From assembly GCA_934149405.1 (NCBI GenBank), contig CAKPEV010000001.1, positions 552 to 64,551 of the forward strand: DNA of 64,000 nt, read 5' to 3'. Under the pieces are notes generated by a model. It was not told the DNA's origin and made no database searches. It saw only the letters and a program-made list of their open reading frames with translations. Within the stretch, counting starts at the first letter, position 1. Every line of letters begins with the position of its first letter. The position numbers and the translations under genes were made by a program. Shown here one piece after another: positions 22,838 through 49,118 of this stretch. This DNA comes from an uncultured Clostridia bacterium. Lineage in GTDB: Bacteria > Bacillota > Clostridia > TANB77 > UBA1234.

Positions 22838-23080
22838 TTATTTTACCTCTTCCAAAGCCCTTGCCAATTGGTCTCCACAAGATGTTCCTTTTGTACCACA
22901 ATTTATTCCCTTTAATAATTTAATAACCTTTTCCTTTGGTTGTCCCTCCACAAGAGCTGCTACAGCCTTTAAATTTCCATTACAGCCTCCTGTAAATCTT
23001 ACATTTTTAACTATTCCATTTTCTATTTCAAATTCAATTTTTCTTGAACATGTTCCATTTGTTTCATAAGTATATTTCAT
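22838..23080 (-). CDS. TIGR03905-family Cys-containing small protein. The likely start is MKYTYETNG, after an AAAAGGAGAG RBS.
   Basis: GTCSRKIEF...GGCNGNLKAVAALVEGQ...GTSCGDQLA resembles the TIGR03905 family. Confidence 0.55.
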   Translation of the reverse strand: MKYTYETNGTCSRKIEFEIENGIVKNVRFTGGCNGNLKAVAALVEGQPKEKVIKLLKGINCGTKGTSCGDQLARALEEVK

Positions 23081-23545
23081 TTTTACTCTCCTTTTATATT
23101 TTGGTGTGTCCATTAATTTTATGGAGCACGCCTAAGCTTAAGCTGAATTTTTGCAGCATATTTTATTCTTTCATAAATTAATTTACACTACCTTATATTT
23201 ATTTTGAGGCATTTGGAATAATTTATTTGCAATAGATTAAAATTTTTATATTTTCTCTTTTCCATTGCCATAAATACCCTGCCATTAATACTAGCAAATT
23301 TATTTTACTTTTCAGGATAAGTATTGTCAAGAGACCAAAATTTTATATAATATAATGTGATATAATATAACACGCTGTAATTAATATAAATATAAGTACA
23401 TTAACGATTGCCTTAATTTTCACAAAGAAATTGATGCGTTATCTTAAAAAATATAAATTATTTTAGTTTTCGACAAATTTCGACAAAATATAATCCTTAT
23501 AACTATTAAAATTGAAATATATTTTAATTTAAAGGAGGAATTGTT

Positions 23546-23998
23546 ATGTCAAGATATGTTGAAAAAAATTTAGGAAAAGACGAAGAAATTGTTGGAAAAG
23601 GAGAAGTACATAAGATATGTCTTTTGCCACACATTTTACTATGCTTTATTTACATTGGTTTTTTTACCATTTGGGCCGCTATTATCAGAATATGTACTAC
23701 CGATTTAGCTTTCACAAATAAGCGATTACTTGGAAAAGTAGGCCTAATTAACACCAAAGTATTGGATACGCCACTTAATAAAATTAATAATGTTTCAATT
23801 GAACAAGGTTTGGGCGGAAAACTATTTGGATATGGTACAATTGTTGTTTCAAGTTCTTCAGCTCAGTATAATTTTAAAGGAATTAAAAATCCTGAAGTAT
23901 TTAGAAGTAGATTAATGGAACAAATTGATAAATTTGATGAAGACAGAATCAAAAAGCAAGCTATGGAAATGGCAAAAGCAATGAAAGAAAACAATTAA
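23546..23998 (+). CDS. Bacterial PH-domain (bPH_2/YdbT-like) membrane protein
   Basis: Two TM helices followed by NVSIEQGLGGKLFGYGTIVVSSS, characteristic of the bPH_2 family. Confidence 0.6.
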   Translation: MSRYVEKNLGKDEEIVGKGEVHKICLLPHILLCFIYIGFFTIWAAIIRICTTDLAFTNKRLLGKVGLINTKVLDTPLNKINNVSIEQGLGGKLFGYGTIVVSSSSAQYNFKGIKNPEVFRSRLMEQIDKFDEDRIKKQAMEMAKAMKENN

Positions 23999-24031
23999 AG
24001 TTGTTAAAAAAAAGATAGGTGATGAAATTAG

Positions 24032-24514
24032 ATGAACAGTAATAAGCCAAAGATAACTCGTCTAATGCTATTAGGTTTAATAATACTTTTACCTTTTATA
24101 ATTATGATGAAAAATAGTTTTTCTGACTTGCAACAAAGTAAATTAGAAGATACTCTACTAACAAGTGAAAATTATACATCTGCTTCAAGTATTGTAGAGA
24201 AGGCTATCGATTGTTTAAAAAGTGGAGATATTGTTTCTATGGAAAATTTATTAAGTAGTGATTGTGAATTTTATAACATCAGTACTAAATATTCCTTAAG
24301 CTCATGCTTAGAAAATTTATCTGAGTATGAAAGTTGTTGGTATGAAGAACGTGGAAACTCAATAGGAGATGAAAAAACATATAGAATATATTGGAATGGA
24401 TACAACCTAGATAATGCTCAACAAATAATAACACTAATTTTAAAGAAAAAAGTGACTCAATCAGAAATCACTTATGAAATTAAAAATATTATTTTATCTA
24501 ATAATACTATTTAA
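24032..24514 (+). CDS. Hypothetical membrane-anchored 160-aa protein
   Basis: N-terminal signal-anchor (LMLLGLIILLPFIIMM). No recognisable family. Confidence 0.4.
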   Translation: MNSNKPKITRLMLLGLIILLPFIIMMKNSFSDLQQSKLEDTLLTSENYTSASSIVEKAIDCLKSGDIVSMENLLSSDCEFYNISTKYSLSSCLENLSEYESCWYEERGNSIGDEKTYRIYWNGYNLDNAQQIITLILKKKVTQSEITYEIKNIILSNNTI

Positions 24515-24614
24515 TATTTTGTCTTCCAGCAAAAATTCGATATAATTATAAATATTAAATAAAAAAGGATAACGATTGGAACTATAGCAAGATTAAAGTG
24601 AAAGGAAAGAATTT

Positions 24615-25346
24615 ATGGAAGAAAATAATGAACTAATAAAATTAGAAGAAAAATTAAAAGCAATTGAACATAAAGATAACTCTTTGAAAAGACTAGATAT
24701 GTCATTTGGTAAGCACATCGAATTGAAGGAATATAAGAAGAGCCATCTTCTTGCCTATTGGATAGCTGATTTTTCAGAATACCACGATGTTGAACGAAAT
24801 TTTGATTATAGTAAATTAAAAACATTTAAACGCGGAGACATAATAAAAGTTAATTTAGGCTTTAATATAGGTAGCGAATTAGGCGGTTTACATTATTGTG
24901 TTGTTTTAAACAAATACGACAACCCACATTCGAAAGTACTGAATGTTATCCCACTAACCTCAAAAAAGGATAATAAAAAATATGATTCAAAAGCTTGTAT
25001 CGATTTAGGAGACGAAATTTACACGCTACTAAATAACAAATTTGAAAAAGATTTAAAAGAATGCGAAAAAGAATTACAAACCGTAAAAGACCTCCTTACT
25101 GCTACCCCGTCGTCATCCCAAAATGAACGATTAAATAGTCTTTCAATGAAGCTAATGTATTTAGGAAAAATAAAAGAAGAATTGCAAAAGATGAAACACG
25201 GTTCGATTGCAAAAATTGACCAAATCACAACCGTTAGTAAAATCAGAATATTCAACACTAAAAACAATATATTACTTGGCATTACAGCTACGAACCGAAC
25301 TCTAGACCTAATAGATAGCAAAATAAAGAAGCTATATACAAAATAA
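24615..25346 (+). CDS. Atypical MazF/PemK-fold protein (243 aa) with an N-terminal extension and a roughly 50-aa coiled-coil insertion
   Basis: KRGDIIKVNLGFNIGSELGGLHYCVVLN...VLNVIPLTSK matches the PemK/MazF core. C-terminal GSIAKIDQITTVSKIRI resembles the second MazF conserved block. Confidence 0.55.
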   Translation: MEENNELIKLEEKLKAIEHKDNSLKRLDMSFGKHIELKEYKKSHLLAYWIADFSEYHDVERNFDYSKLKTFKRGDIIKVNLGFNIGSELGGLHYCVVLNKYDNPHSKVLNVIPLTSKKDNKKYDSKACIDLGDEIYTLLNNKFEKDLKECEKELQTVKDLLTATPSSSQNERLNSLSMKLMYLGKIKEELQKMKHGSIAKIDQITTVSKIRIFNTKNNILLGITATNRTLDLIDSKIKKLYTK

Positions 25347-25447
25347 TTTTGTATAATTTATTTGACAATGAGCATATTATATATTATAATCTAATTATAA
25401 CTTAGCCACTTGTTATGTTAAGTAACGAGTCGGTCATAATAAGATTT

Positions 25448-25477
25448 AGAGTGTCTCATTGCAGACACTCTTTTTTA
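25448..25477 (+). terminator. Rho-independent terminator AGAGTGTCT-cattgc-AGACACTCT followed by TTTTTT
   Basis: Perfect 9-bp stem plus T6, immediately after the MazF-like gene. Confidence 0.7.
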
Positions 25478-25640
25478 TTTCAAAATAAATTATAAAAAAG
25501 ATAACATATTAACTTGGCGGAAGGCATGTTATCTCTTCTCTATTCACAAATGATAACCCACTTGTAAGATAACTACATTTTAAGCTATTTTTTATCCTCT
25601 TACAAGTGGAACAAATATTCTAACTCTAGGAGGTATTTTT

Positions 25641-26761
25641 ATGTCTAAAAGAAATTATAACGGTGAAGGAACTGTTTATTATCACCCAAAACTCAAAAGA
25701 TGGGTTGGACAGTTCACAGACCCTTTTACACACAAAAGAAAAGCCTTATATGATAAAGATGAAAAAGCACTTAGGAAAAAACTTAGACAAGCTATAAATG
25801 ATGCAGAAAAAGGAAAATTTGTTGAAAAATCAAAGGATACCATACCCGAAATTGCAGAGCGAATTATTGAACGCAAGCATCAAGCCAATATTACTGGTTC
25901 TTCTGCTTAACTTAGAAGCTTAGGAACTCTTGCTATTATTAAAAAATCCGAACTAGCAGACATATTCCTATTCAAAATGTTACTAAAGATGATTTGCAAG
26001 ACTTTTTCTTTACTTTAAAAGACTATTCTAATTCGTACATATTTAAAATATATCAAATTGTTAAGATATCTTTTGAGGAGGCTATAAAAGATGAATTGAT
26101 TGTTAAAAATCCTATGATATATGTTATAAAGCCAAAGTCCAATAAGCAAGATAAAAAAGTAGAGGCTCTCACACTGGAACAACATCAGCTCTTTATCAAG
26201 TCACTTGAAAACGAAAATTACAAGAATATATTTTTAATAGCAATAAATACGGGTATGCGTTGTGGTGAAATTCTAGCTTTAAAACCTAGTGACATTGACT
26301 TAGATAATAAAATCATAAAAGTGTCGAAAACTATCACCAGAAATGATTATGACAGCTATACAATTAAAGACGGTGGTAAGACATATGCTAGCACGCGTGA
26401 AATTCCTTTTGATAACGATTTAAAGCAAGTACTGATAACTTCTATAAATGAAATGAAAAATAACGAATTGGGGCTCTTATTTGCATTAGACGGAAAGATT
26501 ATTCGTCCCACTTCTCTTAACTTGGTTTTCAAACGAATTCGCAAGGACTTAAAGTTTGAAGGTAGCTATAATTTTCATATGTTACGTCATACGTTTGCTA
26601 CTAGGTGTATTGAAAGTGGTATGCCTGCTCATGTTCTACAAAAATTATTAGGTCATACCGGTGTATCTGTTACGATTAACACATACACTTCAATATTTGA
26701 CAAATATAAAAAAGAAGAATTTAACAAGTTTCTAGAATATAAAAGATTAAATAACATTTAG
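25641..26761 (+). pseudogene. Phage-type tyrosine integrase, inactivated by an in-frame TAA (25908) and a frameshift around 25960
   Basis: N-terminal arm-binding domain ORF ending at 25910. Catalytic domain ORF with R...HMLRHTFAT...Y. Intervening ...IPIQNVTKDDLQDFFF is readable only after a shift. Confidence 0.75.
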
Positions 26762-26939: not shown

Positions 26940-27023
26940 TGGTGCGGGTGAGAGGACTTGAACCCCCACGTCTGTGACACTAGATCCTAAGTCTAGCGCG
27001 TCTGCCAGTTCCGCCACACCCGC
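26940..27023 (-). tRNA. tRNA-Leu (anticodon UAG), class II with a long variable arm, genomically encoded CCA
   Basis: Reverse complement reads GCGGGTGTGGCGGAACTGGCAGACGCGCTAGACTTAGGATCTAGTGTCACAGACGTGGGGGTTCAAGTCCTCTCACCCGCACCA. Anticodon loop CTTAGGA. Confidence 0.85.
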
Positions 27024-35787: not shown

Positions 35788-36069
35788 TTTTATTCCCCCT
35801 TGTATTCATTTGCTGTGTTCAAGTCCTTTTATAACACGCTTAAAACTAAGCCACTTTTGCCGTAATGCATTTTATTTTTTCATAAATTAGTTTAAAATGC
35901 CTATCCATTTTTACGTGACTCAATTTAAATTTAATCTATTTTTTATAATGTTTTTTCTTTTTTATAAGTTAATACAACCCTATTCGTATTAATTCATAAC
36001 ACATACAGTATATACTAAATATATAAAAATTGGAATTAAAATTGTTATATCTTTTATTAGAATATTTTG

Positions 36070-41288: not shown

Positions 41289-41352
41289 ATGTGTTAACTT
41301 TTATTATGTACTTTAATTTGCCAAATTTAGGTTTTTCATAGCTATTATTTTC

Positions 41353-41907
41353 TTAATCTGGCATTTCCATCATGAGTTTTATAAAACCTATGAAAAAAGC
41401 CCAACACAAGCCTATAATCAAAATGAATATAGCAAATCCTACTATTATAAAAGAACCTATATAATCCCATGCCGCTTCAAGACTCGTTCCACCTTTTTTT
41501 CTTGTTTTAGATATTATGGGCTTTTCAGCTACATGGATTGGCCCCATATTTGCTTCAGCCTCTTCTTCACAAGATGATAATTGCTCTTCTGACAGGTTGT
41601 TTGAAGATAACATCATTTTTCTTACTTTTCTTTTAACATCCCACAAATATAATTTATTAGCAGTAAACAAATAAATAAAAAATCTTATTATAGGATATGC
41701 AAACTTTATTCCAAGATCAACTGTAATTCCAAAAAGAACGGTTGAGCCGTACAATAATATAAATCCTAGCAAATATGATTTTCTATAAAAGAACCATATC
41801 GGGCCCAAGAATGCACCTAATATTGCTGCAGGCCAATTTAGTTTTTTATTTACAATTTTATCTGCATTTTTGCCTATGTATTCTAGTACTAATTTTTCTT
41901 CCATTTG
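41353..41907 (-). CDS. DUF2628-like small membrane protein. Likely start MEEKLVLEY.
   Basis: NWPAAILGAFLGPIWFFYRKSY motif and hydrophobic segments. Tentative family call. Confidence 0.45.
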   Translation of the reverse strand, partial: QMEEKLVLEYIGKNADKIVNKKLNWPAAILGAFLGPIWFFYRKSYLLGFILLYGSTVLFGITVDLGIKFAYPIIRFFIYLFTANKLYLWDVKRKVRKMMLSSNNLSEEQLSSCEEEAEANMGPIHVAEKPIISKTRKKGGTSLEAAWDYIGSFIIVGFAIFILIIGLCWAFFIGFIKLMMEMPD

Positions 41908-41981
41908 TTTTCCACCTTTCTTTTGGTTGTGTTCGCTAATTATAATATTTTTCATATTTTAATATTCTGCTATCAATTGAT

Positions 41982-42060
41982 TTTTATGGAGCACACTGTG
42001 CTCCGCTGCATGCCTACCTTTAATATTGAGTTAACTCTATTTGGTTTTTATGGAGCACGC
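41982..42060 (-). promoter_or_regulatory. Two tandem copies of the recurring leader motif TTTTATGGAGCAC(A/G)C. The first lies inside the perfect palindrome GGAGCACA-C-TGTGCTCC.
   Basis: Same 15-mer also at 23117-23131 and 46559-46573. All four copies sit upstream of minus-strand genes in the same orientation. Confidence 0.4.
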
Positions 42061-42067
42061 TTACATT

Positions 42068-43739
42068 TTACATTGTATTTTGTTTTTCGGCAACTTTTTT
42101 CATTCTTTCTATATACATTTTTGCATCTTCTGGCAAATCGAAGTTTGGAACATGTTTTGTCTTATAACTTAACGGATTTGTATTTGCACTTGTTTCGTCT
42201 ATTATGTCTTCTATTTCAAGCACAGCTTGCGCAAACATTTGAATATTTTTTTCATCGTTTTTTTGAACATAGTATGAAAATCCTTCACTTAAAAATGATA
42301 AGTATTCTAGATAATTTCTCATTACATATTTATTTAATAATAATCTTTTTTTCTGATAATATATGGCCTCATCATATTTCTTTTCATTTACTAATTTGTT
42401 AGAAAAAGCCTCATATATGCCACTTATATTCTTGTTGTATTTATATGCCATGTTTGCTATTTCAAGTTGTTCTGATGGCGATGTAACAGTATATAATTCT
42501 TCTTGGAGCGCATCTGTATAAAATGGCAAAATGCTATATGCTGTTTTATAATCTTTAATTTCATAAGCTAATGCTGCAATTGCAACTATAAAGAAACTAC
42601 ATAATAATGCACCTATCACTACATTAAACACCTTTTTCGATAAAAATGTTTTTGTATTAAATTTCGACATGATTATGAATAACAATATGAAATATATATA
42701 TTCAAAGTCTATATCTATCATCGAATGGCCTAATATTAAAATCATTATTAGTCTACTGATGACATTTTGTTTTTTATCAAAGAAAGTTAATACGGCAAAA
42801 ATGCTCAAGCAAATCATTGGGACTATACCAACATCAAGCATTATTTGTAGCAATGAGCAATGCACATATTTTGCATCATATATTCCTGTTTGTATTTCTG
42901 TTTGCTTATAGTACCAACCCATATATCCATACCCAAATGGATTATTCTTTATCATATCTATTGCATCTTTATAATAAAGTAATCTTGTTGTCATTTCTCC
43001 ACTTTGCATCATGTCTTTTGTTATTCTTTTTTCCATGTGAAATAGATTGTTTGCTACTAATAATCCGCAAGACTGAAATCATAATTATTACAAATATTCT
43101 TTTTTTGTTTTGATGAGAAAGAAACAATAAAGATATTTCACATAGTACCATTAAAATGATGATAGCTCTACTATTAGTCATTATTATTCCTGTGATTAGT
43201 ATGCCTGTACAAATATGTGCTCTTATGCCTTTCTTTTCTTGAAACAATTGTACTACCAAGGCTACTACTAAAAATAAACCATATGAGTTGGCATACTCAA
43301 ATAAACCTTGTAACCTATCATTAAAAAAATACAAATCTGATTTAAAAATCATTGAAAGAAAACTTATGATTACAGATACTGTCCCAGACATAGGAATTAC
43401 ATTTAAAATATGTACTACATCATCATCTTTATATTCGTACTGCAAGAATAAAATTGTAAAAAGGATTATACTTGAATTTTTTATAAAACCTATTACAGCC
43501 ATTCCTTTATCTACAGCATAAAAGCTAGTTACAATAAATGCAATTATATATACACTTAAAAGATAGAATTTAGTATCTTTGGGCAATATAATTTTTCTAT
43601 TTTTATTGATTTTGTATATTAAACCAATTAAACAGATTATGCTTAACATGACATTCGAGAATAAGCTTAAAAAACCTCCAAATATCGGCGCCATGAATAT
43701 AATTATTTTTATCAAATCTATTTTTCTACTTTTTTGCAT
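42068..43739 (-). CDS. O-antigen ligase (Wzy_C)-like polytopic membrane protein with a C-terminal TPR-like domain. Two overlapping ORFs imply a frameshift near 43045-43060.
   Basis: Upstream ORF is all TM helices (TNSRAIIIL). The downstream frame opens upstream of its ATG with GLLVANNLFH continuing a helix, then RLLYYKDAIDMIKNNPFGYGYMGWYY (ligase-like). C-terminal helical repeats. Confidence 0.55.
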
Positions 43740-43800
43740 ATTATACCTTTCTATTTTTTCATAAGAGCTGCCTTAAACAAGACAGCTCTTATGTTAGTGT

Positions 43801-46521
43801 TTATTCATCTAATTTAATTTCAATGTATGAATTCATGTTCTCTTTTAAATATATTAAAACACTCTGATGAGGAATCTCCACTCCGCTATCACTTATATAT
43901 CCTAAATAAGCATCACCGACAAAAAGCTCCTCTTCGGTTGCATTTACGAGATTTTTATCACTATCATAATAAACAAATTTTTCATAGGAATCTCCAAGGT
44001 TTATATACTCGCTCGATCCTTTTTTATAATAATAGACATCTCTGAAAAGATTATTAGAAGTTTTGATTTCTTTATATATACTTCTATCATTTTTATCAAT
44101 TACATACACTGTATTTCCCATAAAATACTCTGTTGTTCCATCAACTTTTGCATCAAAATCTATTCTTCCGCCAATAATTTGAAAAGCTTTATCTTCTGGT
44201 ATTATTCTTCTATAGTTTAGCACCCTTGCCGATGGTGTATATAAACATTCAGCATAAGAAATTAATTTGCTTTGCCAATCTTCTCCTAAATCAAGAGTTC
44301 CTTTTTTACTATTATAATTGTATCTTAAAGGAACTATATCCTTTATGCAATACTTAACATCTAAATTTTTAGCTAAAGCTATTGTTAAAAACTTACCATT
44401 ATATGTTGAATTGCTTTCTTGTTCAGAAAAATGCAGACCATTTTTACTAGGCTTTTTATAAGCTGACATATTATCTTCACTATTTCCATAGCAATATACA
44501 AAATCTTTATAATTAGGACCTAAATATACTGCTAAAGAGGCTTGGAAAAAATGTACCGAAGCAAAAGGATTTTTTACTTTAATTTTCACATAGTTGTTAG
44601 GATTCTTTTTATTTAAAATGTAAAAATAATATACTGTACGATCTCCTTGATAGTTACAGGATAACACTCTTTGCGATGGTGTATACATAGAATTTTTAAA
44701 ACTTGAAGAAAGCACGTCCGAATCTATGGCAGTATATATATAATCTTTCCAATTTTCACCTAAATCCACAGTGTAGGTTTCATTATCGTATGTATACAAT
44801 ATGTTTGACATATTATAACATACTCTTGAATTAGGATTAGCCTTTAATGAAATCCACACGTACATTGCATTGAATGTTGAATTTTTGTCTCTGTTATTTG
44901 AATTAGAATAATTTATCGTCTTTTTGTTTGGTGTATATTTTTCAAAATCAGAAAAACCATCAACATCATTTCCGTAACTAAACAAAAACTTAGTGTAATC
45001 CTTGCCCAAATATATTGTGCCACTCATTCTATCAACTTTTATTTCTGCGAAAGGATTTTTGGTTTCTATTTTAACAGAATCATTTATATTATTTTTTTTC
45101 ATTACAAGCACATAATTTCCGCAAAAAACATTTTTAGATTTTACCAAGATTTCTCTTTTGCATTCACCCTCAACATTATACTTCGAAGGTTCAAAATAAA
45201 AAGTTCTTTCAAGCTCTTCTGTATATGTTAAATATCTTTGCGACGGAGTATACTTAGTACCACGCTCTATACTTGCGTTATACTCATCTAAATAAACATA
45301 TTGATTCCAATTCTCCCCTAAGTCAAGTATACCTGTATTTACATCATATTTGATATCTGTTTTACTTGTATTAGTTTCTTCATTTTCCTTTGTTTGAGTT
45401 TCAATCTCAAAGTATGTATAACATGCTTTATTTTGTTTTAGAGCCACAAAAATATATTTCTTACCAAATGTTGTTCCACTATTATCTTTGGCATCTTCTG
45501 AGTAAGTTAATATTTTTTTGCTTGGTGTATAAGATATTTTCACATCATCTAGTGAATCTGAATATCCATATTTAAAATTCTTATAACCGCTTCCTAAATT
45601 TAATGTATTTTTCTCGCTGTCATAAGATACATCATCAAATGGGTTAACTATTTTGATTTTTACATAATTATCTTCATGTTGTGCATCTATTATAAAAAGA
45701 TATTTGCCACTAAAATAATCATTTCCTTCTTCTAATTCATTAAAAGTCAAAACTTGACTAGATGGTTTTCTTATTTTCTTTATTTTAGTGCCATATGAAT
45801 ATTTATATTTTTTCCAGTCCTTACCTAAGTCAACTGTACCTGTCTCTTCATCATATTCAAATGTAGGAAATTTTATTTTTTCTTCATCTAATACTATCTT
45901 TTCTAATACACTTAGCGAATTATGCATCAATTGGCAAACTTCTGCTCTTGTTAATTTGCCTTTTGGATTGAATGTGCCATCTGTGTTTCCTCTCATCAAT
46001 TCATTTTCAACAGCTATTGCTACATACTTTTTTAAATTTTCTGATATATTTTCTTTATCAGAGAATTTATTTAATGTAGAAAGTTTGTAAGAAGAATCTT
46101 GAAGACCAGCTGCCATTACAACAGAAACTGCTACATCTTCTCTCACAGCTTCATCTAATGGTCTGAAAAATAGTGTATCGTTTTCTCCTCTGTATGCTGA
46201 CAAATACTTACTAGCAACTTCGATATAATTATATGCCCAATGTTCTTTTTTAACATCTTGGAACGAAATATTATTTTTCTCCTTTAAATTTAATGTCAAA
46301 ACCAAAATTTTCGCAAACTCTGCTCTTGTTATTGATTTATTGGGCATGAACGTATTATCTGGATATCCAGACAATATTTTTTTAGTTGTCATGTCCATTA
46401 TTACACTATATGCCCAATGACTTTTATTAAGATCTGAATAATCTACTGCAAAAACGTTAGAAGAAAAAATCATGATTAAGCATATTAAAAATAAAAATAA
46501 AATTTTAAAATTCTTTTTCAT
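43801..46521 (-). CDS. SLH-domain S-layer-associated protein with about seven tandem ~100-aa modules carrying the conserved core (V/L)(D/N)LG.(D/N)(W/Y).(K/N)(Y/F).(Y/F)...YTPS...L.Y. Paralogous in its SLH region to 9286-11607.
   Basis: Signal peptide. SLH repeats. Repeated motif visible in the translation. Start placed at MKKNFKI, after an AAGAGGGG RBS. Confidence 0.65.
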   Translation of the reverse strand: MKKNFKILFLFLICLIMIFSSNVFAVDYSDLNKSHWAYSVIMDMTTKKILSGYPDNTFMPNKSITRAEFAKILVLTLNLKEKNNISFQDVKKEHWAYNYIEVASKYLSAYRGENDTLFFRPLDEAVREDVAVSVVMAAGLQDSSYKLSTLNKFSDKENISENLKKYVAIAVENELMRGNTDGTFNPKGKLTRAEVCQLMHNSLSVLEKIVLDEEKIKFPTFEYDEETGTVDLGKDWKKYKYSYGTKIKKIRKPSSQVLTFNELEEGNDYFSGKYLFIIDAQHEDNYVKIKIVNPFDDVSYDSEKNTLNLGSGYKNFKYGYSDSLDDVKISYTPSKKILTYSEDAKDNSGTTFGKKYIFVALKQNKACYTYFEIETQTKENEETNTSKTDIKYDVNTGILDLGENWNQYVYLDEYNASIERGTKYTPSQRYLTYTEELERTFYFEPSKYNVEGECKREILVKSKNVFCGNYVLVMKKNNINDSVKIETKNPFAEIKVDRMSGTIYLGKDYTKFLFSYGNDVDGFSDFEKYTPNKKTINYSNSNNRDKNSTFNAMYVWISLKANPNSRVCYNMSNILYTYDNETYTVDLGENWKDYIYTAIDSDVLSSSFKNSMYTPSQRVLSCNYQGDRTVYYFYILNKKNPNNYVKIKVKNPFASVHFFQASLAVYLGPNYKDFVYCYGNSEDNMSAYKKPSKNGLHFSEQESNSTYNGKFLTIALAKNLDVKYCIKDIVPLRYNYNSKKGTLDLGEDWQSKLISYAECLYTPSARVLNYRRIIPEDKAFQIIGGRIDFDAKVDGTTEYFMGNTVYVIDKNDRSIYKEIKTSNNLFRDVYYYKKGSSEYINLGDSYEKFVYYDSDKNLVNATEEELFVGDAYLGYISDSGVEIPHQSVLIYLKENMNSYIEIKLDE

Positions 46522-46695
46522 ATATTCCCCTCTTTTCAATATAGATTGTGCTCTACAATTTTATGGAGCACACTTTGTTGGCTGATGCTAGTTGTCTTGC
46601 CTATTTTAACGTGCAAAAAGCTAGCATTATGTTTTACATAATACTAGCTATCTCTTATTTTATTTGAAGTTTTTTTATTTATTAAGCAATATATC

Positions 46696-46717
46696 GTGTG
46701 TGTGTGTGTGTGTGTGT
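46696..46717. repeat. (GT)11 dinucleotide microsatellite
   Basis: cgtgtgtgtgtgtgtgtgtgtgttac read directly, about 175 bp upstream of the SLH gene start. Confidence 0.9.
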
Positions 46718-46780
46718 TACAGCCTCAAGGGTTTTAGCGTTCATATCTTTTTTCCTTTCTTAGTCCATCATTATTTTGTA

Positions 46781-46880
46781 TTATATACTAACCAGTTTTA
46801 CTTTGCAACCACATTTCTCTTACTACTTCACCTGTTTCTGTATCAATTATATACTAACCAGTTTTATTTCGCAATCACAT
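46781..46880. repeat. Two copies of a 34-bp direct repeat, TTATATACTAACCAGTTTTAYTTYGCAAYCACAT, 66 bp apart
   Basis: Copies at 46781-46814 and 46847-46880 differ at 3 positions. Confidence 0.8.
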
Positions 46881-46970
46881 TATATTCTGTACTCGCAAAA
46901 GGCCCTCAAGTAATAATTTGAAATCCGCATATAATAAATAATTATAGTTTGCTAGTATTTTTAAGCCAAA

Positions 46971-48713
46971 TTACGATAGTTTTATATGCACTTCTCTTAA
47001 TTGTTTTTGTGTTACTTCTCCTGGTGCTCTCATCAATAAATCTTCTGCATTTGCTGTCATAGGGAATGCTATTACCTCTCTTATGCACTCTTCACCTAGT
47101 AAAAGCATTACTATTCTATCAACTCCTGGTGCCATTCCAGCATGAGGTGGTGCACCAAATTTGAAGGCTTCATATAAAGCTCCAAATTTCGTTTGTAATT
47201 CCTCTTTTGTATATCCAGCTATCTCAAATGCCTTTTCCATTACATCGATTCTGTGATTTCTTACAGCTCCCGATGAAAGCTCAACTCCATTACATACGAT
47301 ATCATATTGATATGCCTTAATCTCCAAAGGATCTTTGTTTTGTAAATCATCAATTCCACCTTGTGGCATTGAAAATGGATTGTGCATAAAATCTATTTTG
47401 CCTTCATCATTTCTTTCATACATTGGAAAGTCTGTAATAAAGCACAATTCAAATTTGCTATTATCTATCAAATCCATTCTTTTTCCGAGTTCTGTCCTAA
47501 TTTCGCCAGCCAATTTGTCTACAAATTTTGGTGCATCACTTATGAAAAATAAAACGTCGCCTTGTTTCAAAGAAAGTAATTTCTTTATTTCTTCAGATTG
47601 CTCATCAGTAAAATACTTGGCAATCGGACCTTTGTACGTCATATCCTCTTCTACTTCTATATATCCAAGACCTTTCATACCGATTCCAAGAGCATATTCT
47701 AACATTTTTTCAAAAAATGATTTTGACATCTTTGTACAATCTGGCACAACAATACCTCTTACAGGTTTTCCTTTAAATGGTTTAAATTCGACTGTTTCAA
47801 AGAATTTTGTCAAATCCTCTATCACAAGTGGATTTCTTAAATCTGGTTTATCTGTTCCGTACTTTTTCATAGCCTCTTCGTATGGAATTCTTCTAAATGG
47901 TTTTTCAGAAACTTTTTTATCACTAAATTTAGAAAATATATCATATAATACCTCTTCAGCCGTATCAAAAACATCTTCTTGAGTGGCAAATGCCATTTCA
48001 AAATCCAATTGATAAAACTCTCCAGGAGAACGGTCTGATCTTGCATCCTCATCTCTAAAACAAGGTGCTATTTGAAAGTACTTATCAATTCCCGATGTCA
48101 TAAGCAATTGTTTAAATTGTTGCGGTGCTTGTGGCAAAGCATAAAACTTTCCTTTATGCTTTCTTGATGGAATTATATAATCTCTTGCACCTTCAGGCGA
48201 AGATGAAGTTAAGATAGGTGTTGTTATCTCTGTAAAGCCCATATCTTCCATCTTTCTTCTCATATAACTTACTACTTTTGATCTAAATAATATCTTGTCT
48301 TGAACTTTTTTGTTTCTTAAATCTAAAAAACGATATTTAAGTCTGACATCTTCTTTTGTCTTTAATGATTCTGCAACCTCAAATGGCAATGCACTTTGGC
48401 ATTCTCCAAGTATTTCTAATTTGTCAGCTAAAACCTCAACTTCGCCTGTTGAAATTTTTAAATTTATTGTGTCTTCGTCCCTTTCTATAACTTTTCCCAT
48501 TACTGATATAACAGTTTCTCTGTGAACATTTTTCAACATAGTTTCATCATGTATAACAATTTGAGAGACGCCATATTGATCTCTCAAATCTATAAACATG
48601 ACGCCACCATGGTCTCTAATGTTTTCAACCCAACCTGCTAATTTTAAAACTTTGCCAATATCACTTTTGCTAATTTGACCGCATGTGCAATCTCTGTAAA
48701 TGTTTCCTTTCAT
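46971..48713 (-). CDS. aspS: Aspartate--tRNA ligase
   Basis: Class II aaRS motifs. N-terminal OB anticodon-binding domain. 580 aa. Confidence 0.95.
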   Translation of the reverse strand: MKGNIYRDCTCGQISKSDIGKVLKLAGWVENIRDHGGVMFIDLRDQYGVSQIVIHDETMLKNVHRETVISVMGKVIERDEDTINLKISTGEVEVLADKLEILGECQSALPFEVAESLKTKEDVRLKYRFLDLRNKKVQDKILFRSKVVSYMRRKMEDMGFTEITTPILTSSSPEGARDYIIPSRKHKGKFYALPQAPQQFKQLLMTSGIDKYFQIAPCFRDEDARSDRSPGEFYQLDFEMAFATQEDVFDTAEEVLYDIFSKFSDKKVSEKPFRRIPYEEAMKKYGTDKPDLRNPLVIEDLTKFFETVEFKPFKGKPVRGIVVPDCTKMSKSFFEKMLEYALGIGMKGLGYIEVEEDMTYKGPIAKYFTDEQSEEIKKLLSLKQGDVLFFISDAPKFVDKLAGEIRTELGKRMDLIDNSKFELCFITDFPMYERNDEGKIDFMHNPFSMPQGGIDDLQNKDPLEIKAYQYDIVCNGVELSSGAVRNHRIDVMEKAFEIAGYTKEELQTKFGALYEAFKFGAPPHAGMAPGVDRIVMLLLGEECIREVIAFPMTANAEDLLMRAPGEVTQKQLREVHIKLS

Positions 48714-48739: not shown

Positions 48740-49118
48740 TCAAGGACGAAAAATCCCTAGCATGCAAACTTTATGCATACTAGGGACGATTTTTCCGTGG
48801 TACCACCCTGATTTAATATTCCAAAATATAAGGTTTAATACTACAAAAAACCTAGCATTGTAACAATGCTAGGGACGAATTTTTTCGCGGTACCACCCAA
48901 TTTCAATATCATGGATATCCTTAAGTAGCCTTTAACGCCAGCTATGCGAACTTGCTTTGCACAAGCCTACTCGAAAGGTGTTCTTTCATCAGTTTCGTTT
49001 ATGAAAACTCTCAGCTACGGTTAATTTTCACTCTCTTTAAACTACCTCTAATTACTTTTCCTTCGTCAACGCATTTTCAATGTGTTTCAATTTTAACATT
49101 TTATATAGTATATGTCAA
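48740..49118 (-). promoter_or_regulatory. T-box riboswitch leader of aspS. It carries its own TTGACA-17-TAAAAT promoter, Stem I with an AGAGAG box and a putative GAU specifier. It ends in two tandem antiterminator/terminator modules.
   Basis: Minus-sense T-box sequences TTGGGTGGTACCGCG (48886-48898) and AGGGTGGTACCACGG (48795-48809). Each is followed by a hairpin plus U-run (CCTAGCATTGTTACAATGCTAGG-TTTTTT and CCCTAGTATGCATAAAGTTTGCATGCTAGGG-ATTTTT). Confidence 0.75.

What the first reader, a model, noticed from the sequence alone, without database searches (positions are those of the whole stretch)
41982..42060. Recurring palindromic leader motif TTTTATGGAGCAC(A/G)C in four 5' regions
The 15-mer occurs at 23117-23131, 41982-41996, 42046-42060 and 46559-46573. 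All four copies are upstream of minus-strand genes (a TIGR03905 Cys protein, a DUF2628-like membrane protein with two copies, and the SLH S-layer-associated protein). All share the same orientation relative to the gene.

In gene-sense orientation the core is G(C/T)GTGCTCCATAAAA. It is embedded in dyad symmetry each time: GGAGCACA-C-TGTGCTCC at 41988-42004, GTGCTC-N12-GAGCAC at 46548-46571, and GTGCTCCAT-N7-ATGGACAC at 23113-23136. It does not match operators I know (CtsR, CIRCE, Rex, CodY, Fur/Zur, cre). It therefore looks like the binding site of an uncharacterised regulator of envelope genes, or a small dispersed repeat.
Basis: seen in the sequence. Interest (0 to 1): 0.55.

Follow-up and report, generated by a model that had tools for sequence, protein, structure and literature searches.

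The report
Small mobile repeat before start codons
The recurring 15-base motif is not a shared regulator site but the conserved core of a family of tiny mobile DNA repeats (MITEs) that in this uncultured gut Clostridia species sit, in one orientation, just upstream of the ribosome-binding sites of unrelated genes.

Summary
TTTTATGGAGCACRC occurs four times in the window, against 0 expected, always in sense with a minus-strand gene.

It is not an operator of an envelope regulon. It is the 3' arm and A-tail of a GTAG-tagged hairpin (ATGTAGC-GGAGCAC-NNN-GTGCTCC-ATAAAA). That hairpin forms the centre or right inverted repeat of a family of 75-135-bp palindromic repeats.

- **Mobility:** the elements have terminal inverted repeats and 8-bp target-site duplications. 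One window copy (23102-23192) is absent, leaving a clean empty site, in 5 of 10 conspecific strains.
- **Copy-number variation:** the 41982/42046 pair is a 64-bp tandem repeat with 2 to 4 units in different strains.
- **Abundance:** the species' reference MAG holds at least 21 exact copies, upstream of unrelated genes such as spoVT, blaI-like and copZ-like.
- **Orthologs:** DUF2628 orthologs in other lineages lack the motif.
- **Fifth copy:** a degenerate copy lies at 35808-35901.

One feature is unusual. Every copy with the right terminal repeat ends 5-13 nt before a Shine-Dalgarno sequence, in sense orientation (about 20 independent sites). This explains the constant distance of about 36 nt to the ATG. 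It suggests targeted insertion or a carried function such as an outward -10 or a 5'-UTR hairpin.

No transposase partner was found.

The parts
23102..23192 (-). Complete 91-nt 'class D' element upstream of the TSCPD gene. Sequence: GGTAGTGTAAATTAATTTATGAAAG...GCGTGCTCCATAAAATTAATGGACACACCA. The 15-mer (23117-23131) is the inner part of its right terminal inverted repeat.
   Evidence: Read. In one search the element is present in the window and 5 strains and absent, with a clean empty site, in 5 strains. Full-length relatives are shown. The arms pair.
23193..23200 (-). Left copy of the 8-bp target-site duplication AAATATAA.
   Evidence: The empty-site strains carry one copy only (CAAAATAAATATAAAAGGAGAG).
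23094..23101 (-). Right copy of the target-site duplication AAATATAA. It is followed by AA and the SD GGAGAG (23086-23091), then ATG at 23080.
35808..35901 (-). Fifth, degenerate family member (core decayed to GCGTGTTATAAAA) upstream of the PBP_like_2 lipoprotein gene (ATG 35786). Flanking repeats are AATGGATA / AATGAATA, followed by CAAGGGGG (SD).
   Evidence: 70% identity over the whole 91-nt query. Alignment, sequence, nhmmer E=5e-4. Other strains carry a two-core version at the same site.
41924..42012 (-). Last repeat unit plus the 'class E' right end upstream of DUF2628. It contains GCAGC-GGAGCACA-G-TGTGCTCC-ATAAAAA (hairpin 41988-42004, 15-mer 41982-41996), then a 45-nt segment ending TATAAT-TAGCGAACACAACC(A) (right inverted repeat 41925-41939). 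AAAAGAAA and the SD GGTGG follow.
   Evidence: The same right-hand segment lies upstream of unrelated genes in L057, L073, L126, L148 and L158.
42013..42067 (-). First (5'-truncated) 64-bp tandem unit, starting 8 nt after the Wzy_C gene stop. Contains the 15-mer at 42046-42060.
   Evidence: In one search the unit number is 2 in the window and 7 strains and 4 in L133 and L138. In one search strain L169 has 3 units.
46544..46577 (-). Right-half fragment of a class D-type element upstream of the SLH gene: AAAGTGTGCTCCATAAAAT-TGTAGAGCACAATC. The 15-mer is at 46559-46573 and the remnant of the right inverted repeat at 46544-46558. TATATTGA-AAA and the SD GAGGGG follow, then ATG at 46521.
   Evidence: In strain L133 the same right end closes a multi-unit array.

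Best explanation
**What it is.** The 15-mer is the most conserved piece of a lineage-specific family of non-coding, palindromic, non-autonomous transposable elements (MITE-like repeats). The host is an uncultured, low-GC (31%) human-gut Clostridia species and its relatives.

**Anatomy (shown).**
- The shared core is ATGTAGC-[GGAGCACA | GGAGCTTA | TTAAGCTTA]-G-Y-GTGCTCC-ATAAAA, a GTAG-tagged hairpin with an A-tail.
- In the minimal elements (75-91 nt), the sequence GTGCTCCATAAAA-TTAGTGAACACAACC(A) is the right terminal inverted repeat. It mirrors the left end (T)GGTAGTGTAAACTAATTTATG.
- Longer versions add a 45-nt segment ('class E').
- Others place the core inside a different 125-136-bp element with the ends GTTACTATTCAG...CTGAATAGTAAC ('class A').
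- The core-bearing unit also occurs as head-to-tail arrays with a 64-90-bp period.

**Mechanism.**
- Shown: elements are flanked by 8-bp target-site duplications, and one has an empty site in conspecific strains.
- Inferred: a transposase acting in trans makes 8-bp staggered cuts. The ends GGTTGTGTT... and the 8-bp duplication recall IS6/IS26-family elements, but that is only a lead.
- Inferred: array units expand and contract by slippage or unequal recombination.

**Placement (shown) and effect (inferred).**
- Copies that carry the right inverted repeat end 5-13 nt upstream of a Shine-Dalgarno sequence, always in sense. This puts the core about 35-40 nt, or 77-85 nt in class E, before the start codon.
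- Inferred: the elements are co-transcribed in 5' UTRs. Any effect on the genes is a cis by-product, such as a hairpin or a -10-like TAAAAT/TATAAT 14-15 nt from the element end, rather than control by a dedicated regulator.

**The four reported copies.**
- One recent, polymorphic insertion (23117).
- A two-unit tandem repeat with a class E end (42046 and 41982).
- One decayed right half (46559).
For: **Longer units.**
- The motif sits inside longer homologous units.

**Inverted repeats and 8-bp duplications.**
- Class A: perfect in L058, L061 and L076; 7 of 8 in L072, L098 and L117.
- Class D/E: AAATATAA (window), AATAATTA (L144), CCATAAAA (L158), AAAAATAA (L141), and others at 7 of 8.

**Variation between strains.**
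- Filled versus empty site at the TSCPD gene among strains of one species.
- A further presence/absence difference in L007.
- Tandem-unit number of 2, 3 or 4 between strains.
- An array versus a single copy at the SLH site.

**Abundance and distribution.**
- At least 21 exact copies in the species-representative MAG CAKPEF01 from a truncated scan. Unrelated taxa show single chance hits inside GC-rich coding DNA.
- 28 further metagenome loci carry the exact 28-mer core.

**Downstream genes and orthologs.**
- The downstream genes are unrelated: TSCPD, SLH (twice), DUF2628, PstS-like, spoVT, BlaI-like, CopZ-like, a histidine-kinase-like protein, LD-carboxypeptidase-like, rpsB.
- There is no motif upstream of DUF2628 orthologs in other lineages.

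**Structure and database searches.**
- The elements fold as long imperfect palindromes, with z = -5.4 for L163 and -4.3 for L061.
- No Rfam family matches.
- No literature, plasmid or phage match.
Against: - No autonomous element or transposase with matching ends was found in the sequence held. Mobilisation in trans is therefore inferred.
- Only one clean empty/filled pair exists. It co-segregates with a nearby integrase island, so it could reflect two old haplotypes rather than recent movement.
- The strict placement next to the SD and the single orientation are not what purely parasitic MITEs show. Pneumococcal BOX, RUP and SPRITE are only about 61% co-oriented and are enriched between convergent genes (PMC3049150). 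This hints at a targeting rule or a selected function that I could not identify.
- The core is shared by element classes with different ends. That is easier to explain if the core itself does something.
Confidence: 0.82

Rival explanations
1. Mobile promoter or 5'-UTR module. This is compatible with the MITE reading but adds function. The element carries an outward-facing -10 (core ...CCATAAAAT, or TATAAT in class E) 14-15 nt from its right end. Transcription would then start in the last ~8 nt of the element and give a ~30-nt leader with the host SD. ATGTAGC lies at the -35 position with a spacer of 15-17 nt of variable sequence. Alternatively, the hairpin next to the SD changes mRNA stability or translation.
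For: - The hexamer sits at the same position in all three window ends: TAAAAT-TAATGGACACACCA (23117), TAAAAT-TGTAGAGCACAATC (46559) and TATAAT-TAGCGAACACAACCA (41982).
- L057 has TGGTATAAT, an extended -10, at that place.
- All SD-adjacent copies are in sense orientation, with a start codon 17-24 nt after the element end.
- Correia and other MITEs are known to carry sigma70-like promoters and to lie immediately upstream of genes (PMC10969869).
Against: - There is no -35 match and no TG extension in class D (read directly from the sequence).
- The consensus promoter scan of 41300-47100 finds no more sites than shuffles do (42 vs 38.7).
- The TSCPD gene keeps its own TTGACA-17-TAAAAT promoter about 130 nt upstream in both filled and empty alleles.
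- The SLH gene has two strong promoters further upstream.
- MFE folds leave the SD unpaired with or without the element.
- A promoter would not need to sit within 0-5 nt of the SD.
Confidence: 0.25
2. Operator of an uncharacterised transcription factor that controls cell-envelope genes. This includes the version in which a MITE has spread the operator.
For: - The sequence is palindromic (GGAGCACA-N-TGTGCTCC).
- It lies close to the start codons.
- Two SLH genes carry it (window 46559 and L029).
- The core is more conserved than the rest of the repeat across element classes.
Against: - The left half of the dyad is replaced by unrelated sequence (TTAAGCTTA, GGAGCTTA) in about half of the copies, and the partner arm is upstream in some copies and downstream in others.
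- Up to 5 tandem copies occur.
- Strains lack or gain copies with no change in the gene.
- The downstream genes are unrelated.
- Orthologs elsewhere lack it.
Confidence: 0.07
3. REP/REPIN-type repeats spread by a RAYT (Y1/HUH) transposase. The core has the REP hallmark of a GTAG tetranucleotide at the foot of a short GC-rich hairpin. In the rumen MAG locus L122 the units alternate in orientation like BIMEs/REPINs.
For: - GTAGC precedes the stem in most copies.
- L122 has alternating GTAGC-GGAGCAC-NNN-GTGCTCC-AT and its inverse.
- Tandem clusters occur.
- GTAG-tagged REPs form dimers and clusters (PMC3733652).
Against: - Elements that carry the core have terminal inverted repeats and 8-bp target duplications. 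Single-strand Y1 transposition does not produce these (established knowledge of IS200/IS605 and RAYT).
- REPs lie mainly downstream of genes, between unidirectional and convergent ORFs (PMC3733652), whereas these lie upstream at the SD.
- The hairpin is not maintained: left-arm variants carry no compensating change.
- No Y1 gene was seen next to any copy. The one gene flanked by inverted copies is a ToxN/AbiQ-like toxin.
- PMC3733652 reports no Firmicutes examples.
Confidence: 0.06
4. A structured cis-regulatory RNA (riboswitch or leader) or an intrinsic terminator shared by the four 5' regions.
For: The sequence has hairpin potential and lies in 5' UTRs. In the DUF2628 leader the middle arm could pair with either flanking copy.
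Against: - No Rfam hit at gathering threshold or at E<=1.
- No U-tract follows the hairpin on either strand.
- No covariation.
- Presence/absence and unit-number variation within the species.
Confidence: 0.03

Closest known systems
Correia elements (CREE/NEMIS) of Neisseria
   Same: - Small (about 100-155 bp) palindromic MITEs with terminal inverted repeats.
- Many copies, mostly immediately upstream of genes.
- Co-transcribed.
- Can supply promoters or processing sites (PMC10969869).
- Polymorphic between strains.
   Different: - Correia duplicates TA, not 8 bp.
- A different phylum, with no sequence similarity.
- The present elements are tied to the 5-13 nt before the SD in one orientation, and they also form tandem unit arrays.
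BOX / RUP / SPRITE repeats of Streptococcus pneumoniae
   Same: - Firmicute intergenic repeats under 200 bp with stem-loop structure.
- BOX is modular, with a variable number of internal boxB units, like the 64-bp unit arrays here.
- Likely mobilised in trans by IS transposases.
- Affect co-transcribed genes (PMC3049150).
   Different: - The pneumococcal repeats are only about 61% co-oriented with genes and are over-represented between convergent genes (PMC3049150). The elements here are upstream, SD-adjacent and in sense.
- The sequence, ends and 8-bp duplication differ.
REP / BIME / REPIN with RAYT transposases (GTAG-tagged palindromes)
   Same: - GTAG at the foot of a short GC-rich hairpin.
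- Occur as singletons, inverted dimers and tandem clusters (PMC3733652, PMC3116915).
   Different: - Here the hairpin lies inside elements with terminal inverted repeats and 8-bp target duplications.
- Location is 5' of genes rather than 3'.
- No RAYT was identified.
- PMC3733652 reports no Firmicutes examples.
IS6/IS26-family insertion sequences (IS257, IS1216, ISS1), as a candidate mobiliser
   Same: - 8-bp target duplication (PMC6952201, PMC4471558).
- The family's inverted repeat starts GGTTCTGTTGCAAAG (string found in 10.1101/2020.09.30.320143). The element's right end reads GGTTGTGTTCACTAA, so 8 of the first 9 bases agree.
   Different: - The resemblance covers only 9 bases and comes partly from memory.
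- No IS6-type transposase was looked for or found in this genome.
- IS6 elements are not known to target ribosome-binding sites.

Membership tests
MITE (non-autonomous DNA transposon) | Small (<300 bp), non-coding, multi-copy | tested here: met
   Elements are 75-136 bp. There are at least 21 exact cores in MAG CAKPEF01 and 5 family members in the 64-kb window.
MITE (non-autonomous DNA transposon) | Terminal inverted repeats | tested here: met
   Class A has GTTACTATTCAG / CTGAATAGTAAC. Class D/E has (T)GGTAGTGTAAACTAA / TTAGTGAACACAACC(A). The arms pair in folds.
MITE (non-autonomous DNA transposon) | Target-site duplication of constant length | tested here: met
   The duplication is 8 bp. 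It is perfect at window 23102-23192, L058, L061, L076, L144, L141 and L158, and 7 of 8 at six further copies.
MITE (non-autonomous DNA transposon) | Insertion polymorphism with an empty site | tested here: met
   At the TSCPD upstream site, 6 sequences are filled and 5 are empty with a single AAATATAA. L007 has a further presence/absence difference.
MITE (non-autonomous DNA transposon) | A related autonomous IS with the same ends in the same genome | tested here: inconclusive
   No widely spaced pair of ends, and no transposase next to a copy, was found in the roughly 1 Mb of loci held.
REP/REPIN-RAYT system | GTAG (or GTGG) tag at the foot of a short palindrome | tested here: met
   GTAGC precedes GGAGCAC-NNN-GTGCTCC in most copies.
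REP/REPIN-RAYT system | No target duplication; location mainly 3' of genes or between convergent genes | tested here: not met
   8-bp duplications are present. Copies lie upstream of start codons, unlike the distribution in PMC3733652.
REP/REPIN-RAYT system | Single-copy RAYT (Y1_Tnp) gene flanked by the repeats | not testable with these tools
The only gene flanked by inverted copies is ToxN/AbiQ-like.
Transcription-factor operator / regulon | Site conserved upstream of orthologs across strains and species | tested here: not met
   The site is absent in 5 of 10 strains at TSCPD and absent upstream of the DUF2628 orthologs L170, L171 and L172. It is conserved only within the species at the SLH gene.
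Transcription-factor operator / regulon | Functionally coherent target genes | tested here: not met
   Targets include spoVT and genes for TSCPD, SLH, DUF2628, BlaI-like, CopZ-like, PstS-like and peptidase-like proteins.
Intrinsic terminator | GC-rich hairpin followed directly by a U-tract | tested here: not met
   The hairpin is followed by AUAAAA in sense. In antisense the U-run precedes it.
CRISPR array (considered because of the 64-67-bp period) | Conserved repeats separated by unique spacers | tested here: not met
   The whole 64-bp unit is repeated and there are no unique spacers.
Known RNA families (Rfam 15) | Covariance-model match | tested here: not met
   There is no hit at the motif in the window or in 9 loci at E<=1.

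The most novel reading that the evidence does not exclude
The class D/E elements may be MITEs that are directed to ribosome-binding sites. Their right end always lands 0-5 nt (plus the 8-bp duplication) upstream of a Shine-Dalgarno sequence, in sense orientation. They bring a conserved block, ATGTAGC-N15-17-CCATAAAAT or TATAAT, that acts as a portable outward promoter or 5'-UTR hairpin module. A parasitic repeat would then rewire the expression of dozens of unrelated genes in a gut Clostridia lineage, and it would do so differently in different strains. Asymmetric recognition of an SD-like target by a transposase would itself be a new targeting rule.
Probability: 0.2. Interest if true: 0.65.

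Novelty: new member of a known kind. Interest (0 to 1): 0.4.

Why it matters
- **Annotation:** motif scans in this lineage will keep 'discovering' this sequence as a regulon signal. It is a repeat family, not an operator.
- **Strain variation:** the family provides strain-level markers in an uncultured human-gut Clostridia species, through insertion presence/absence and a 64-bp tandem repeat with 2 to 4 units. It places 75-150 nt of hairpin-forming sequence directly in front of ribosome-binding sites. This is a plausible source of strain-specific expression differences for genes such as S-layer-type (SLH) proteins, a PstS-like lipoprotein and spoVT.
- **Placement rule:** the strict SD-adjacent, single-orientation placement is not seen in the well-studied Firmicute repeats. 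If it reflects target choice, it would be a new insertion specificity.

Tried and rejected
- **Rfam:** scans of the window and of 9 related loci found nothing at the motif.
- **Terminator:** rejected because no U-tract follows the hairpin.
- **Sigma-54 (-24/-12):** one copy has GG/GC at the right spacing on the + strand. That is the wrong orientation, and the other copies lack it.
- **SigK, SigE and SigD -10 consensus sequences:** compared from memory. Only partial matches, and no -35.
- **CRISPR:** rejected because the whole unit repeats.
- **Translational sequestration of the SD by the CUCC in the core:** MFE folds leave the SD open.
- **RAYT or transposase:** the only ORF flanked by inverted copies is a ToxN-like toxin. 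A search for widely spaced terminal repeats found none.
- **BLAST of a class A element:** no match against plasmids or phages.
- **The 28-mer against viral contigs:** no match.
- **Literature search for the sequence:** no hit.
- **Strain comparison at 35808-35901:** the first attempt used the wrong gene as anchor and was uninformative. It was redone.

Full report
**1.

TTTTATGGAGCACRC occurs exactly four times in the window, at 23117, 41982, 42046 and 46559, all on the + strand. None appeared in 100 dinucleotide shuffles. From base composition the 13-mer core is expected 0.0018 times in 64 kb; the window is 30.8% GC.

In gene sense the motif reads GYGTGCTCCATAAAA. It lies upstream of three minus-strand genes:
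- a TSCPD-domain gene (ATG 23080);
- a DUF2628 gene (two copies of the motif, 64 nt apart);
- an SLH-domain gene (ATG 46521).

The motif ends 36 and 37 nt before the ATG at the 23117 and 46559 copies. No Rfam family covers any copy.

**2. The motif is part of something longer and variable**

I fetched the same chromosomal region from other assemblies of the same species. These are human-gut metagenomes and two MAGs titled 'uncultured Clostridia bacterium'.

*TSCPD site.* The TSCPD upstream region exists in two forms.
- Six sequences, including the window, carry a 91-nt segment: GGTAGTGTAAATTAATTTATGAAAG...GCGTGCTCCATAAAATTAATGGACACACCA.
- This segment is flanked on both sides by AAATATAA.
- Five sequences lack it and have a single AAATATAA directly in front of AAGGAGAG (SD).
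- This is a filled site and an empty site with an 8-bp target-site duplication.

*DUF2628 site.* The two motif copies belong to a 64-bp head-to-tail unit. Most strains have two units, L133 and L138 have four, and another strain has three.

*SLH site.* The motif is kept in all strains that have the gene. In L133 it is the last unit of a longer array.

*L007.* This strain belongs to the species-representative MAG. It has an extra ~74 nt carrying the motif between two genes that are 28 nt apart in 15 other sequences.

**3. The family**

- It already showed mostly single hits in unrelated, GC-rich taxa, often inside coding sequence.
- MAG CAKPEF01, the same species, contributed 13 separate 8-kb stretches with at least 20 exact copies.
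- Several related Clostridia MAGs had one or two copies.
- A metagenome scan for the 28-mer GTAGCGGAGCACAGTGTGCTCCATAAAA gave 28 more loci.

*Common core.* Aligned on the motif, the copies share ATGTAGC-[GGAGCACA / GGAGCTTA / TTAAGCTTA]-G-Y-GTGCTCC-ATAAAA.

*Forms of the element.*
- **Minimal and 'class D' elements (75-91 nt).** The left end is (T)GGTAGTGTAAACTAATTTATGAAAAA. The right end is GTGCTCCATAAAA-TTAGTGAACACAACC(A). The 15-mer is therefore the inner part of the right terminal inverted repeat, and the whole element is one long imperfect palindrome. The fold z-score is -5.4 for L163.
- **'Class E' elements.** These carry an extra ~45 nt between the core and the right end, finishing in TATAAT-TAGTGAACACAACC. 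Examples are window 41924-42012, L057, L073/L126, L148 and L158.
- **'Class A' elements (125-136 bp).** These have different ends (GTTACTATTCAG...CTGAATAGTAAC) and the core in the middle.
- **Tandem arrays.** Core-bearing units repeat with a 64-90-bp period. There are five units upstream of spoVT in L047. L122, from a rumen MAG, has units alternating in orientation.

*Target duplications.* The 8-bp duplications are perfect at L058, L061, L076, L144, L141, L158 and the window's 23102-23192. They match at 7 of 8 at six further copies.

*Fifth window copy.* With the 91-nt element as query I found a degenerate member in the window at 35808-35901 (-), upstream of a PstS-like lipoprotein gene. Other strains hold a two-core version at the same place.

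*The 46559 copy.* This is a right half...GTGTGCTCCATAAAAT-TGTAGAGCACAATC.

**4. Why it is not a regulon operator**

- The left half of the palindrome is replaced by unrelated sequence in about half of the copies, with no compensating change on the right.
- The partner arm lies upstream in some copies and downstream in others.
- Copies come and go between strains with no change in the gene.
- The downstream genes include spoVT, rpsB, a BlaI-type repressor, a CopZ-like protein, a histidine-kinase-like protein, an LD-carboxypeptidase-like protein, two SLH proteins, TSCPD, DUF2628 and PstS-like.
- DUF2628 homologs in other lineages (L170/L171 from GCA_964447615.1, and L172) have no motif upstream.
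- The envelope theme in the window is therefore a coincidence of the genes that happen to lie there.

**5. The unusual part**

Every copy that still has the right terminal repeat ends just before a ribosome-binding site and is in sense with the gene.
- With strict criteria, 11 distinct downstream contexts have the SD 5-11 nt (median 9) after the element end and the start codon 17-24 nt after it.
- Counting the more decayed ends, about 20 independent sites follow the rule: an 8-bp duplication, then 0-5 nt, then GGAGG.
- Of 60 distinct core copies, 26 have an SD-preceded start of a long ORF within 100 nt downstream, against 7% for random positions in the same loci.

Well-studied Firmicute repeats behave differently. 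BOX, RUP and SPRITE are only about 61% co-oriented and are enriched between convergent genes (PMC3049150). Correia elements do sit immediately upstream of genes and carry promoters (PMC10969869).

I see two explanations and cannot separate them. The first is an asymmetric target preference of the unknown transposase for an A-rich octamer followed by an SD-like G-run. The second is selection for something the element brings.

One candidate for the second explanation is a -10-like hexamer at a fixed 14-15 nt from the right end. It is TAAAAT of the core in class D and TATAAT in class E, and L057 has TGGTATAAT. The conserved ATGTAGC lies at the -35 position, separated by a variable 15-17-nt spacer. 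Several points argue against this:
- there is no -35 consensus;
- the promoter scan is not above background;
- TSCPD and SLH have their own good promoters further upstream;
- predicted folds do not occlude the SD.

**6. Relation to known systems**

The features that define a MITE are met: small size, terminal inverted repeats, a constant 8-bp duplication, multiple copies and an empty site. The exception is a matching autonomous IS, which I did not find in the sequence available.

The GTAG-plus-hairpin core and the alternating arrays recall REP/BIME/REPIN elements (PMC3733652, PMC3116915). Three observations argue against membership:
- the target duplications;
- the location 5' of genes;
- the unmaintained hairpin.

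A RAYT could not be searched for.

The ends GGTTGTGTT... and the 8-bp duplication resemble IS6/IS26-family elements (PMC6952201; GGTTCTGTTGCAAAG found in 10.1101/2020.09.30.320143). This is a lead, not a test.

The sequence has no match in the literature library, in plasmids or phages, or in viral contigs.

**7. Verdict**

The finding is a real and highly non-random motif. Its best explanation is a previously undescribed, lineage-specific MITE-like repeat family, with confidence of about 0.8. It is a new member of a known kind. The SD-adjacent, one-orientation placement is the one feature that deserves follow-up.

Noticed in passing
window 46612-46880 (minus strand), upstream of the SLH gene: This looks like a phase-variable attenuator.
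- Two sigma70-like promoters lie inside ~66-nt direct repeats: TTGCGA-17-TATAAT (46874-46846) and TTGCAA-17-TATAAT (46808-46780).
- An SD follows, then a tiny leader ORF (ATG 46744, MNAKTLEAV(TH)n...) containing (AC)11 at 46696-46717.
- An intrinsic terminator comes next (AGCTAGTATTATG-TAAAA-CATAATGCTAGCT + T5, about 46615-46649).
- Among 10 strains (AC)n is 5, 9, 10, 11, 13 or 14.
- With n=10 or 13 the leader ORF runs to a stop 3 nt inside the terminator's 5' arm. In the other frames it stops 28-35 nt upstream.
   Followed up: partly
L109:2100-3250 (MAG CAKPEF01, contig 18): Two class A elements in inverted orientation flank a cassette. The cassette holds three ~36-nt tandem repeats, a terminator-like hairpin and a 167-aa ORF that looks like a ToxN/AbiQ type III toxin (judged by eye, no domain search run). 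The arrangement resembles a composite transposon.
   Followed up: no
window 41353-46539; compare L137: The four-gene block SLH - 256 aa - Wzy_C (313-322 aa) - DUF2628 is missing in strain L137, where aspS is followed directly by the UPF0122/ylxM gene. L133 lacks aspS at this position. L169 has two tandem DUF2628 paralogs, each preceded by repeat units.
   Followed up: partly
window 23546-26761 (+ strand): A ~3.7-kb island (bPH_2, a 160-aa ORF, a PemK-like toxin, a 125-aa ORF and a tyrosine recombinase that is split in some strains) lies between the cation ATPase gene and the TSCPD gene. It is present only in the strains that also carry the 91-nt insertion. The two differences co-segregate in all 11 sequences.
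   Followed up: no
window 42068-43739 (minus strand): The 256-aa and Wzy_C-domain ORFs overlap by about 40-70 nt in different frames in all strains examined. This is either a conserved overlapping gene pair or one O-antigen-ligase-like gene with a conserved frameshift.
   Followed up: no
window 48868-49078 (minus strand): A T-box leader (93.1 bits, right at the gathering score) lies upstream of the aspartyl-tRNA synthetase gene. A tRNA-Leu gene is at 26940-27023.
   Followed up: no
window 41976-42011 (minus strand): The second repeat unit contains an SD-like AAAGGTAGG followed by ATG and a 12-codon ORF (MQRSTVCSIKIN*) that runs through the hairpin. It is probably meaningless, because the ATG is ATGTAGC in other strains.
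   Followed up: partly
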